The position numbers were made by a program. Shown piece after piece: positions 36,001 through 39,000 of a stretch of DNA of 64,000 bases. The first letter of the stretch is position 1. Every line of letters begins with the position of its first letter. Location: NCBI RefSeq assembly GCF_053078305.1, contig NZ_CP166879.1. One strand, given 5' to 3'.

Positions 36001-39000
36001 GAAATTACGCTCGTATTCTTCATCAGGTTCATCGTCAGCGACCGGTTGCTGAACGGTCACCGTATTACCCACAGGGCGGTATATGTTTTCCAGCCAGGGC
36101 TCCTGCGGCTTGTGCTCCAGCACGTTGACAACCTCATCCTCGGCATCACGGATTTTTTCCTCTGCGCGTTTACGCATGCCTTTAAGGCGTTGCTGCTGTT
36201 TGTAGTATTCCGCACTAACCGGGAAGGCTTCGCGTTTATTACCGTCCCATACCGCCTCGCAAATCACGCTGCCATCCAGGCGACGTACGGTAATTCGTTC
36301 GGCATCATGAATGTCATAGCTGATAAGCACCTTACGACCATGCTCGTCACGCAGCTCGGGCGCGTAGTAAATATTATTCAGCCAGCGTATTTCACAGCGT
36401 CTTACAGGGCGTTCCACCATCGGCCGGAACATATCCCGCAGCTCAACATCGGACAGCCATTCAATTTCCGTGTCCTCTTCCGCCAGGCGTTTTTTTCTGA
36501 ACTCCGCCGGGCTGTAATGCTTGCCGTTCGGCTTCACCGGTAATTCATCGTGCGGCCGGTTGTTGTACCACTCAACACCGTCACGAATGGCATCAATCAG
36601 TTCAGACCAGGACGGTAAATCACGCATCGCTGACTGCTGCCGGACGTTCAGCCGTTTGCCCTGTTGCAGGGCAGTAAATGCCGAGCGTAAATCGCGGTTG
36701 GTTTTGCGTAACGTCTCGCGATCTGCACCTTTCCCGAAATAGGTGCGGTATTTACGGGCTATGCGCATCGGTAATGTGCGGTTAAGCCGTTCGATAATGC
36801 CTCGTCCCTGCGGATTACCGGCAATCCCGGTCGGGTGATTAATCCCCAGTCGCGGCAGTATCCCCACAACCTCCTTATCCAGGATGTCGGCGGTTTCCCC
36901 GGAGCCGTTATCCGAGTAATACAGAAACGGTTTGCCGTGATGGCGAATGCCGTGCTGTATGGCACCGGCTACGGCGAAAACATTTTCAGCCAGGTCAAGG
37001 CTCCAGCCCACCACAAAGCGCGTGCCACCGTCGATAACAAAGGTCACTTCCGGTGCAAATGGCCGACCGTGAACCGGGTGTGCGCATTTCAGTTTCATGC
37101 CGTGACCGTCACCAATCCAGACATAATTCACCGGCATTTTTGACCAGTCGCGGCGCGTGAATCCCTCAAGCTGGCGGTATTCACTGCCGGTCACCCGGCC
37201 TTTTTGTTTCACCACTTCCGGCAGTTTCTTCATTGCGCGGCGAATGGTGTCATAAGACGGCATGATATCGAGCATATAAGGCTCATCAGCGTGCCGGTGC
37301 TGCCATTCAGCAACAAAATCCTCGTAAGCCTCGGTCATTGGTCGGCCGTTTGACTGGCGATACTGCGCCAGAAATTCGGGCAGCCAGTTAATATCTTCGG
37401 CTTTTATTTCCTGGCGCTTACCCGGTGCCAGTAAAAGCAGGCGTTCAGCGGCGTTCTGCGCCTTGTTAAAGGCCGCAATCCAGCGTTTCAGCGTGATTTC
37501 ACTTAACGCACGGCTGTTTCCCTTTTTGGCGTTCGCCGTCTCAACCATTGCCACAATGCGCTCGTCCAGCTGCGAACGTGCCAGGTTGTCAACGATAAAC
37601 CGGATAGCCTTCGCACAGCTGAAACCAGGTTGTTGCGCGACTTTCAGAACTTCGCTGACGATCGCGATTCGTGCATCAGCCACCTGGCGCTGGTTTTCAG
37701 TCAGGGCATTAAGGCGTTCGACCATCAGTTGTGGTGATCCGCGATATGCCTCCACCGCATCAACCACGGCAGGCGAGCGTCTGGCCTTTGTCACCACTGG
37801 AGCCGGTGATTCATCGACTTTTTGAGTCATCAGTTGCAGGGCGTAGCGTTCACGTAATGCCTGCTGCGTCACTTCAGGTAAACAGTCGATGCTGTATTCA
37901 GTTGCTTTAGAGCCTGAGCGACGACGGGAACAACAGCTTTTCCCTTGTACGTAACGTTGTAATGCCTGGCGAATACCTTTTGTTGTAGCAGGCATTCCGG
38001 GCGCGCCAATCAGTTCTTTTGCAATGACATACATATCATGACGCCTTTCTCATATAGCTCTTAACCTGGTATCGACTGGGCCAGATTTCTTCAGGCGATA
38101 CCCCAAGAGCATCAGCAATTATTTGCTGATACGGTCGGCAAGGAGTACGTAATACGCTTTTCAGCGAATCCCTGCTGTAACCAGCCTTTAAAGATAAAGA
38201 GCGCAGTGATAAGCCAGCCATGTGTAAGCGCGCCTTGATGATTTCAGGCGGCCAATCGTGATCTGAAACTTCTCTTCTACTCATACTTCCTCTATTCTAA
38301 AAAGTTACCCGCGCGGATATTCGTGCGGATATCTGTACGGGTAAATAATGCATCACTAAAAATACCAAATCAAGGTATTTTTGGTATTTTGGATAATTTT
38401 TGCTTTTATCCTTATTTTTCAATTGGATAAATAGAAAGAAACCTTTCCTTAGAAAAGCACCAAGAGGTATCTTTATGTCGCAGGGAAAAGAACCTGTTAT
38501 TGAACGTATTGGAATGCTTACAAAGCGCTACCCTTCAAGAAGTGCAGCTGCCAGAGCGTGGGGAATCAATATCAACACATTAAACAGCTATTTCAAGGGA
38601 GGACAAACACAACCAGCCCCCAGAGAAAGTATCCTTATACGAATTTCTGAAAGTGAAGGAGTTAGTCTTGAGTGGCTTAAAGAGGGCAAGGGTGAATCAC
38701 CAAATGATGTTGGTATTTGTGGTAATTTTGGTTGTTCTGGTGATAAGGGAGATCAGCTTACACAGATGCTTTCATTCCTTACGAAAGACGAACGAGAACA
38801 GTTAACCAATCTCCTTGCTCGCAAAGGTGTAGAGACGGTTCTGACACTACTGGATAAAGAAAACCAGGATTTATTACAACTAGAAGGCAGGAAGCGCCTG
38901 GCTGCGTTGATGATTGTAGATATGCCAGACGATTGCGTCAGAGAGATTTTGGAAAAAACCGAGACAAGTAGGCAATCAAATCCGGTAGAATCTAAAGCGG

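What the first reader, a model, noticed from the sequence alone, without database searches (positions are those of the whole stretch)
38285..38474. Candidate operator repeats in the divergent repressor/ner control region
The 190-bp spacer between divergently transcribed ner-like and repressor genes carries a tandem GCGGATAT repeat and a palindrome AAAATACCAAA...TTTGGTATTTT, plausible repressor/Ner operators or an IHF-type site.
Basis: seen in the sequence. Interest (0 to 1): 0.3.

Follow-up and report, generated by a model that had tools for sequence, protein, structure and literature searches.

The report
Mu-like prophage lysis–lysogeny switch operators
The 190-bp gap between the ner and repressor genes of this Mu-like (Sp18-type) E. 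coli prophage holds two conserved symmetric DNA sites, most likely the Ner site and the repressor site flanking the early promoter: an ordinary phage switch, but not mapped before in this group.

Summary
The repeats are real and conserved. GCGGATAT occurs twice, 12 bp apart (38313, 38325). A perfect 11-bp inverted repeat lies at 38359-69/38380-90.

Comparison with about 36 distinct relatives refines both. The tandem repeat is the core of a 40-bp dyad, 38305-38344. In most relatives its centre reads as an inverted repeat, GGATAA-N8-TTATCC; here a compensatory A:T to T:A change makes it look tandem. The dyad lies 21-60 bp upstream of ner, where phage D108 carries an 11-bp inverted repeat. It stays constant when the repressor is swapped. 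I read it as the Ner operator.

The second palindrome is centred at 38370 in the family register. Its gap holds the -35 (TTGATT) of a leftward promoter, with -10 CATTAT abutting the dyad. That promoter sits at the same place in 34 of 36 relatives.

The palindrome's half-site changes with the repressor's recognition helix (xSY with TACC, QNYY with GAAC). In three near-isogenic pairs it is exchanged together with the repressor's N-terminal lambda/XRE-type domain. I read it as the repressor operator over the early promoter Pe.

An IHF reading of the palindrome is not supported by conservation. There are no binding data. This is a new member of a known kind, of modest interest.

The parts
38036..38284 (-). 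ner gene (82 aa, Ner/Nlp family)
   Evidence: Pfam HTH_35 E 2.5e-19 and PHROG 769. 43% identical to Mu Ner.
38305..38344 (.). 40-bp dyad, the candidate Ner operator.
   Evidence: In 26 distinct versions, 89% of symmetric positions pair (G.T counted), against 28-45% when partners are slid, and 6 pairs change on both sides. Strict Watson-Crick symmetry is 75% in 23 distinct 40-mers. The dyad is unchanged when the repressor module is swapped. It occupies the same position as the D108 palindrome upstream of ner.
38345..38350 (-). Predicted -10 of the early promoter Pe (CATTAT on the minus strand). The inferred start point is about 38338.
   Evidence: The best sigma-70-like pair lies at this same offset in 34 of 36 distinct relatives, scoring up to 10 of 12 (TTGACA-17-TATGCT). 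The scan tool missed it because the window copy scores 8 of 12.
38368..38373 (-). Predicted -35 of Pe (TTGATT on the minus strand), lying in the gap of the palindrome.
   Evidence: TTG is kept in nearly all relatives. The dyad centre coincides with this hexamer in 27 of 34 sequences.
38352..38388 (.). Candidate repressor operator O1. Arms are ATCACTAAAAATACC (38352-66) and GGTATTTTTGGTATT (38374-88) with gap AAATCAA.
   Evidence: Relatives have perfect arms with different sequences, for example L021 at 15/15 and L022 at 14/14. The half-site follows the repressor's recognition helix, and the site is exchanged together with the repressor's DNA-binding domain.
38418..38430 (+). Weak IHF-like site (TTTCAATTGGATA, 2 mismatches to WATCAANNNNTTR), about 86 bp upstream of the predicted Pe start.
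   Evidence: Matches with at most 1 mismatch occur within about 2 bp of this offset (71-73) in 13 of 36 relatives, three of them on the opposite strand. L031 matches perfectly. Mu has a perfect match about 72 bp upstream of Pe.
38453..38474 (.). Second imperfect palindrome, AAAAGCACC aaga GGTATCTTT, lying over the repressor Shine-Dalgarno sequence and abutting the ATG. A third half-site, AAAAGAACC, is at 38486-94.
   Evidence: Homologous elements lie at a fixed distance from the KEP codons in all relatives. They are coding in some and non-coding in others. Their role is unresolved.
38475..39005 (+). Repressor gene (176 aa) with an N-terminal lambda/XRE-type helix-turn-helix domain.
   Evidence: PHROG 3037 E 1e-62; no Pfam or PDB sequence hit. 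The AlphaFold N-terminal domain has pLDDT about 87, with helices 22-29 and 33-39 forming the HTH. Fold matches are 186 CI, P22 c2, 434 and SinR.
38293..38298 (+). Speculative -10 (TATTCT; TATCCT in relatives) of a rightward repressor promoter facing Pe.
   Evidence: This rests only on positional analogy with the Mu annotation 1063-1101. It overlaps the ner ribosome-binding site, so its conservation is uninformative, and the -35 is poor.

Best explanation
The spacer is the lysis-lysogeny switch of an Sp18-type Mu-like prophage. It has two modules.

Module 1 is on the ner side. The early promoter Pe fires leftward into ner-A-B. Its -35 is TTGATT at 38373-68 and its -10 is CATTAT at 38350-45, giving a start near 38338. 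The 40-bp dyad at 38305-38344 runs from the start point to about +35. I infer that Ner binds its four CGGRTAW half-sites and throttles Pe. It would also block any rightward repressor transcript that crosses the dyad, as Ner does in Mu and D108.

Module 2 is on the repressor side. The palindrome centred at 38370 brackets the -35 and fills the -35/-10 spacer. I infer that a dimer, or a pair of dimers, of the XRE-type repressor binds the TACC-N7-GGTA core and its A-tract arms, and excludes RNA polymerase from Pe in the lysogen.

What is shown: the sequence anatomy, conservation, compensatory change, the module boundary and promoter conservation. What is inferred: which protein binds where, and the direction of regulation.
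For: Context:
- The gene order repressor / ner / MuA / MuB matches the Mu left end.
- The prophage end is at 39256.

The 40-bp dyad:
- Its symmetry is conserved in 26 distinct versions. 89% of positions pair (G.T counted) against 28-45% when partners are slid; strict Watson-Crick symmetry is 75% in 23 distinct 40-mers.
- Six pairs show double changes. One is A:T to T:A at block positions 16/25, which turns GGATAA-N8-TTATCC into the window's GGATAT-N8-ATATCT.
- Polymorphisms among close E. coli copies fall between the half-sites.
- D108 carries CCGTGAGCTAC-N8-GTAGCTCACGG 14-43 bp upstream of ner, in the same position.
- Vibrio relatives with a Mu-type repressor keep a palindrome at this place (GTGTAAC-N8-GTTACAC).
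- GGATAA/TTATCC palindromes also precede ner-like genes that are not next to a Mu-type transposase (L074, L072).

The module boundary:
- Three near-isogenic pairs (window/L004, L021/L022, Tongde/L025) are 97-100% identical from ner to the last base of the dyad, two of them 100%, and diverge immediately after it.
- In two of these pairs identity resumes inside the repressor's C-terminal half. The exchanged unit is therefore the palindrome plus the repressor's DNA-binding domain.

The palindrome and the promoter:
- The half-site tracks the recognition helix: NSYF/QSYF/KSY with AAATACC, and QNYY with AAGAAC.
- Pe sits at the same offset in 34 of 36 relatives.
- The dyad centre falls on the -35 in 27 of 34.
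Against: - There are no binding or transcript data.
- The operator-repressor association is partly explained by physical linkage.
- In about a third of relatives (VW-6B, L023, L028, L037) the palindrome is weak. In only 19 of 34 does it beat shuffles at P<=0.05.
- L004-type phages have a shifted, hybrid palindrome.
- The dyad shares no sequence with the Mu or D108 Ner sites.
- The dyad also makes a strong plus-strand RNA hairpin (-23.1 kcal/mol, z -5.1). G.T-type asymmetries outnumber A.C-type by 52 to 23.
- The repressor promoter was not located.
Confidence: 0.6

Rival explanations
1. The 40-bp dyad acts mainly as RNA. It would form a 5' stem-loop on a rightward repressor transcript that starts near 38304 and faces Pe, stabilising or attenuating that transcript rather than binding Ner. 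It could also do both.
For: The plus-strand RNA folds to -23.1 kcal/mol, z -5.07, and 0 of 200 shuffles fold as well. 89% of cells pair when G.U is allowed. Positions 17/40 and 19/38 of the alignment show GU, GC and AU types. G.T-type mismatches number 52 against 23 A.C-type. Mu's annotation places a promoter over the ner start and facing Pe.
Against: No convincing promoter lies to the left: the -35 matches 2-3 of 6, and the -10 overlaps the ner SD. The G.U excess rests on a few columns inherited by many sequences and is close to what independent columns would give. There is no Rfam match. Ner-like genes elsewhere have the same half-site as direct repeats, which cannot fold (L051).
Confidence: 0.15
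2. The conserved dyad, or the AAAAGAAC-type repeats near the repressor start, is the transposition enhancer bound by the N-terminal domain of the MuA-like transposase. In this family the enhancer cannot share sites with the repressor through homology, because the repressor has a different fold.
For: The transposase keeps the Mu DNA-binding domain (PF02316, residues 6-143, E 6.9e-6). The repressor is XRE-type, not MuA-like. The dyad is conserved along with MuA as well as with Ner. The H1-H3 repeats contain CTTTT like the Mu operator region and stay GAAC-type in L021 even though its O1 is TACC-type.
Against: The GGATAA dyad also occurs upstream of ner-like genes with no transposase nearby. H2 follows the repressor type, not MuA, in window versus L004. 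There is no direct test.
Confidence: 0.15
3. The AAAATACC palindrome is an IHF site or an intrinsic terminator rather than a repressor operator.
For: AATCAAGGTATTT matches WATCAANNNNTTR at 8 of 9 specified positions. The scan tool lists a terminator-like hairpin at 38355-38385 followed by ATTTTGG. The RNA hairpin folds to -12.6 kcal/mol, z -4.0.
Against: Relatives with TTGACA in the gap (L022, L024, L025) lose the IHF core but keep the palindrome. The stem has 3 G-C pairs in 12. The T-run is absent in L034 and L035. The arms change with the repressor type.
Confidence: 0.05

Closest known systems
Ner operators of phages D108 and Mu
   Same: The adjacent gene belongs to the Ner family (43% identical to Mu Ner). 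The site is repeated or dyad-symmetric, lies 15-60 bp upstream of ner, and abuts or overlaps the early promoter. D108 has 11-bp inverted repeats separated by 8 bp in the same position. That this D108 repeat is the footprinted Ner operator is from my own recollection of Kukolj and DuBow's work, not from a paper read here.
   Different: There is no sequence similarity to CCGTGAGCTAC (D108) or ANPyTAPuCTAAGT (Mu). This site has four half-sites over 40 bp. In D108 the -10 lies inside the palindrome spacer, whereas here the -10 abuts the dyad and the dyad covers +1 to about +35.
Operators of lambda-type (XRE helix-turn-helix) phage repressors such as 434, P22 c2 and 186 CI
   Same: The repressor's N-terminal domain has this fold. 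The operator is dyad-symmetric, overlaps the lytic promoter, and is exchanged with the DNA-binding domain as an immunity module.
   Different: The C-terminal domain is all-helical with no S24 peptidase. Consistent with that, Sp18 is not mitomycin-inducible (PMC2669165). The arms are long A-tract arms (15 + 7 + 15 bp) rather than a compact 14-18 bp site. No clear tripartite OR1-OR3 array is seen.
Mu operator/enhancer O1-O3 with its IHF site
   Same: The map position is the same, between c and ner. The repressor is thought to block Pe. A possible IHF site lies about 70-90 bp upstream of Pe.
   Different: The Mu repressor is a winged-helix protein homologous to the MuA N-terminus and shares its sites with MuA. 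Here the repressor is unrelated to MuA, so any enhancer must be encoded separately.

Membership tests
Ner operator (Mu/D108 type) | Lies next to a Ner-family gene | tested here: met
   HTH_35 E 2.5e-19; 43% identity to Mu Ner.
Ner operator (Mu/D108 type) | Repeated 11-12 bp units or a dyad within about 60 bp upstream of ner, touching the early promoter | tested here: met
   The dyad is at 38305-38344. The predicted -10 abuts it in 34 of 36 relatives. The D108 palindrome is in the same place.
Ner operator (Mu/D108 type) | Sequence resembles the known Mu or D108 Ner sites | tested here: not met
   No similarity is visible to the Mu or D108 control regions. This is expected if specificity has diverged.
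Ner operator (Mu/D108 type) | Ner binds it and represses Pe (and Pc) | not testable with these tools
   Needs a gel shift, footprint or reporter assay.
Operator of a lambda/XRE-type phage repressor | Cognate repressor has an XRE-type helix-turn-helix domain | tested here: met
   PHROG 3037, with weaker hits to PHROG 4 and 8. The model has its HTH at residues 22-39. Fold matches to P22 c2, 434, 186 CI and SinR have TM 0.6-0.75 on the target.
Operator of a lambda/XRE-type phage repressor | Dyad-symmetric site overlapping the lytic promoter | tested here: met
   The centre of symmetry lies on the -35 hexamer in 27 of 34 relatives.
Operator of a lambda/XRE-type phage repressor | Specificity co-varies with the recognition helix; operator and DNA-binding domain form one immunity module | tested here: met
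   xSY goes with TACC and QNYY with GAAC. Three isogenic pairs exchange exactly this unit. Physical linkage is a confounder.
Operator of a lambda/XRE-type phage repressor | Array of several adjacent operators | tested here: inconclusive
   A second palindrome at 38453-74 and a third half-site at 38486-94 are conserved, but they only partly follow the repressor type.
Mu c-type operator/enhancer | Repressor DNA-binding domain homologous to the MuA N-terminal domain | tested here: not met
   PF02316 hits the transposase but not the repressor. The repressor fold is XRE.
IHF binding site | Match to WATCAANNNNTTR that is conserved in relatives | tested here: inconclusive
   The palindrome gap matches 8 of 9 but is not conserved as IHF. 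A second site at 38418-30 has 2 mismatches here and at most 1 mismatch within about 2 bp of the same offset in 13 of 36 relatives.
Intrinsic terminator | G+C-rich stem followed by a conserved U-run | tested here: not met
   3 G-C pairs in 12 and -12.6 kcal/mol. The T-run is missing in several relatives.

The most novel reading that the evidence does not exclude
Because the repressor of this Mu-like lineage is an XRE-type protein unrelated to MuA, immunity operator and transposition enhancer may have come apart. On this reading the invariant 40-bp dyad, and/or the AAAAGAAC repeats that straddle the repressor start codon, would be the MuA-binding enhancer. Alternatively the dyad would double as a 5' RNA hairpin of a repressor transcript that faces Pe. 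Only the variable palindrome would then carry immunity.
Probability: 0.12. Interest if true: 0.5.

Novelty: new member of a known kind. Interest (0 to 1): 0.3.

Why it matters
Sp18-type Mu-like prophages occur in about 4% of complete E. coli genomes searched (230 of 5426). They are mostly in Shiga-toxin-producing lineages, and some are inserted inside Stx phages. Sp18 itself is reported as intact, spontaneously induced and packaged (PMC2669165).

I found no experimental map of its switch in the papers searched. The map given here offers:
- concrete half-sites, a predicted early promoter and an immunity-module boundary for mutagenesis;
- a way to type immunity groups (TACC versus GAAC);
- a basis for asking how a Mu-type transposition machine works with a lambda-type repressor.

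It does not change any general principle.

Tried and rejected
- **The scan tool's promoter.** The leftward promoter it reported (TTGAAA-18-AATTAT, 38422-38393) loses its -10 even in 98-99% identical copies such as L003 and L007. I dropped it in favour of the conserved TTGATT-17-CATTAT.
- **The prophage end.** I first placed it at 39080, from partial BLAST hits. Comparing three independent insertions moved it to 39256.
- **The strict palindrome statistic.** Longest perfect arms with a 5-11 bp gap under-counted imperfect or indel-bearing palindromes. I replaced it with a dyad-symmetry score.
- **Other copies of the repeat.** The extra GCGGATAT copies in the window (9 against about 2 expected) are isolated 8-mers with no dyad context. 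The full dyad pattern occurs only once.
- **Database searches for the repressor and region.** Pfam, NCBIfam and PDB sequence searches gave nothing usable for the repressor. Rfam gave nothing for the region.
- **Literature.** Searches of the library found no description of operators in Sp18-type phages. The Harshey review of Mu was not held.
- **The repressor promoter.** I could not locate it. Candidates on the plus strand between the palindrome and the ATG are not conserved.
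Full report
**Context.** Window 34940-39256 is the left end of a Mu-like prophage, read in reverse. 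The genes are:
- a MuB-like ATPase at 34940-35872 (minus strand);
- a MuA-like transposase at 35944-38034 (minus strand), with Mu-transpos_C and the Mu DNA-binding domain;
- a Ner-family gene at 38036-38284 (minus strand; HTH_35, E 2.5e-19);
- a 190-bp spacer;
- a divergent 176-aa repressor gene at 38475-39005.

Three independent insertions in other E. coli strains share sequence up to ...CACCTGGTTACA. This puts the prophage end at 39256, just upstream of a ferritin-like ORF I take to be ftnB (recognised by eye, not searched).

The element is 99% identical to Mu-like prophages of O157:H7 and other STEC strains. It is also 99% identical to a 'Mu-like phage' annotated inside two Stx phages. Part or all of the 1165-bp query (ner through the left-end region) matches in 230 of 5426 complete E. 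coli genomes; 115 of them hold at least 80% of it. It is the Sp18 type, reported as intact, spontaneously induced, packaged and not mitomycin-inducible (PMC2669165).

**The observation.** Both repeats are present as described. In dinucleotide shuffles of the spacer, the 11-bp perfect inverted repeat is unusual (P about 0.004). The 8-bp direct repeat is only marginal (P about 0.04). The stronger evidence comes from relatives.

I collected control regions from several sources:
- annotated phages (Pseudomonas phage VW-6B, Yersinia phage Tongde);
- E. coli variants at 95%, 87% and 71% identity;
- 30 viral contigs;
- 80 genome contigs found with a Ner alignment.

This gave 36 distinct sequences that carry the same ner-proximal block.

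**The GCGGATAT repeat is the core of a 40-bp dyad.** The block 38305-38344 reads TTACCCG cg CGGATAT tcgtg CGGATAT ctgta CGGGTAA, with 15 of 20 positions symmetric.

In most relatives the two central units form an inverted repeat, GGATAA-N8-TTATCC. In Tongde and in L023-L026 this is a perfect 20-bp palindrome, GGATAACCGCGCGGTTATCC. The window type and E. coli 06-00048 (L005) have GGATAT-N8-ATATCt/C instead. That is a compensatory A:T to T:A change on both arms. Because ATAT is self-complementary, the result also reads as a tandem repeat.

Across 26 distinct versions, 89% of symmetric positions pair, against 28-45% when the partners are slid by 1-3 columns. Six column pairs changed on both sides. 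Strict Watson-Crick symmetry is 75%. Differences among nearly identical E. coli copies fall between the half-sites.

**Why I assign the dyad to Ner.**
- *Position.* It lies 21-60 bp upstream of the ner ATG. D108 has CCGTGAGCTAC-N8-GTAGCTCACGG 14-43 bp upstream of its ner. From my own knowledge of the D108 literature, that repeat is the footprinted Ner operator. The Mu record annotates Ner-binding DNA between Pe and ner.
- *It stays with ner.* Three near-isogenic pairs are 97-100% identical from ner to the last base of the dyad (two of them 100%) and diverge from the next base on.
- *It survives a change of repressor family.* Vibrio relatives with a Mu-type repressor keep GTGTAAC-N8-GTTACAC or TTGTAAC-N8-GTTACAA at this spot.
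- *The half-site follows ner-like genes elsewhere.* It appears as tandem GGGTTATCT repeats in a Vitreoscilla prophage. It appears as TTATCCCA-aaa-TGGGATAA upstream of a ner-like gene in Pectobacterium, which sits next to a ParA-like gene rather than a transposase.

**The early promoter.** In 34 of 36 distinct sequences, the best sigma-70-like pair on the ner strand lies at one fixed place. The -10 abuts the dyad, the spacer is 17 bp (18 bp in a few), and the -35 lies 23 bp further on. Scores reach 10 of 12, as in TTGACA-17-TATGCT and TTGACT-17-TATGAT. In the window it is TTGATT (38373-68) and CATTAT (38350-45), scoring 8 of 12.

The inferred start is near 38338. The dyad would therefore cover about +1 to +35 of the ner leader. 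The promoter reported by the generic scan (38422-38393) is not conserved.

**The palindrome is centred on the -35.** Because GGTATTTT is duplicated, two registers exist in the window. Relatives keep the register with arms 38352-66 and 38374-88. The best centre of symmetry falls within 1 bp of the centre of the -35 hexamer in 27 of 34 sequences.

The arm sequences differ between phages but remain complementary:

| Locus | Left arm | Right arm | Match |
|---|---|---|---|
| L021 | ATCACGAAAAATACC | GGTATTTTTCGTGAT | 15/15 |
| L022 | AACATAAAAAGAAC | GTTCTTTTTATGTT | 14/14 |
| L050 | — | — | 15/16 |
| L034 | GGACTCGAAA | TTTTGAGTCC | — |

The symmetry is not universal. It is weak in VW-6B, L023, L028 and L037. 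It beats shuffles at P<=0.05 in only 19 of 34 sequences.

**Link to the repressor.** The repressor has no Pfam or PDB sequence match but belongs to PHROG 3037. An AlphaFold model built from 13 homologues gives a confident N-terminal five-helix domain (pLDDT about 87). Its helix-turn-helix is formed by residues 22-29 and 33-39. The fold matches P22 c2, 434 repressor and Cro, 186 CI and SinR. It is therefore a lambda/XRE-type repressor, unlike Mu c.

The variable residues 37-38 of the recognition helix go with the inner half-site:
- NSYF, QSYF and KSY(F/Y) occur with AAATACC/GGTATTT;
- QNYY occurs with AAGAAC/GTTCTT;
- KNYY occurs with GAACC/GGTGT.

In the L021/L022 and Tongde/L025 pairs, the exchanged segment runs from just after the dyad to the middle of the repressor gene. 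That segment is the palindrome plus the DNA-binding domain. Physical linkage alone would produce some of this association. The maintained symmetry within each type is the independent argument.

**Other elements.** An IHF-like sequence recurs about 72 bp beyond the dyad in relatives. L031 matches perfectly, and 13 of 36 have at most one mismatch. The window copy (38418-30) has two mismatches. Mu has a perfect match at a comparable distance from Pe.

The IHF-like match inside the palindrome gap is not conserved as such. Only TTGA is kept.

Three AAAAGAAC-like half-sites surround the repressor start, at 38453-61, 38466-74 and 38486-94. They are conserved at a fixed distance from the KEP codons whether they are translated or not. 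They could be a second operator, enhancer sites or a coding constraint. The evidence is mixed.

**Rivals.** The plus strand of the dyad folds into a strong RNA hairpin (-23.1 kcal/mol, z -5.1). G.T-type asymmetries exceed A.C-type by 52 to 23. A rightward repressor transcript starting near 38304 and facing Pe, as in Mu, would carry this hairpin at its 5' end. However, no convincing promoter is there, and the signal rests on few independent events.

The dyad could also be the MuA enhancer. The transposase keeps the enhancer-binding domain, while the repressor no longer shares it.

A terminator reading or a pure IHF reading of the palindrome fits poorly. Rfam has nothing in this region.

**Verdict.** The finding is a real, conserved regulatory region. 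It is a new member of a well-known kind of phage switch. Its interest is modest, mainly for work on STEC prophages and on how Mu-type transposition is coupled to a lambda-type repressor.

Noticed in passing
window 38453-38494: Three AAAAGAAC-like half-sites: AAAAGCACC at 38453, GGTATCTTT at 38466, and AAAAGAACC at 38486. They straddle the repressor SD and ATG. Homologous elements lie at the same distance from the KEP codons in all relatives. They are non-coding in four lineages and are translated as an N-terminal extension (..KExxxGSF..) in the others.
   Followed up: partly
window 39085-39256: The prophage left end is at 39256 (...GGTTACA). Three GTATCAAA repeats lie at 39085, 39137 and 39232 and are likely transposase end-binding sites. 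A 12-bp inverted repeat lies at 39166-77/39194-205.
   Followed up: partly
window 38345 onward; L004, L021/L022, L002/L025: Immunity-module mosaicism. Recombination junctions fall at the same base, right after the 40-bp dyad, in three independent pairs. In two of the pairs the other junction is in the middle of the repressor gene, so N-terminal domains are shuffled onto a shared C-terminal domain.
   Followed up: yes
window 38997-39024: A terminator-like hairpin overlaps the repressor stop codon (12 pairs, 5 G-C).
   Followed up: no
window 1454, 7178, 8549, 22215, 28534, 29995, 33710: The 8-mer GCGGATAT occurs 9 times in the window against about 2 expected. The seven copies outside the control region are isolated, with no dyad partner.
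   Followed up: yes
repressor C-termini (window 38994-39002 and relatives): Most repressors of this family end in KKAG, KAG or KKVG. This conserved tail could be a protease or adaptor tag, by analogy with ClpXP control of the Mu repressor (from my own knowledge).
   Followed up: no
L074 1450-1490; L072: Ner-like genes outside Mu-like phages (Pectobacterium, Affinibrenneria) are preceded by TTATCCCA-aaa-TGGGATAA-type palindromes. The GGATAA half-site may therefore be a general feature of this branch of the Ner/Nlp family.
   Followed up: partly
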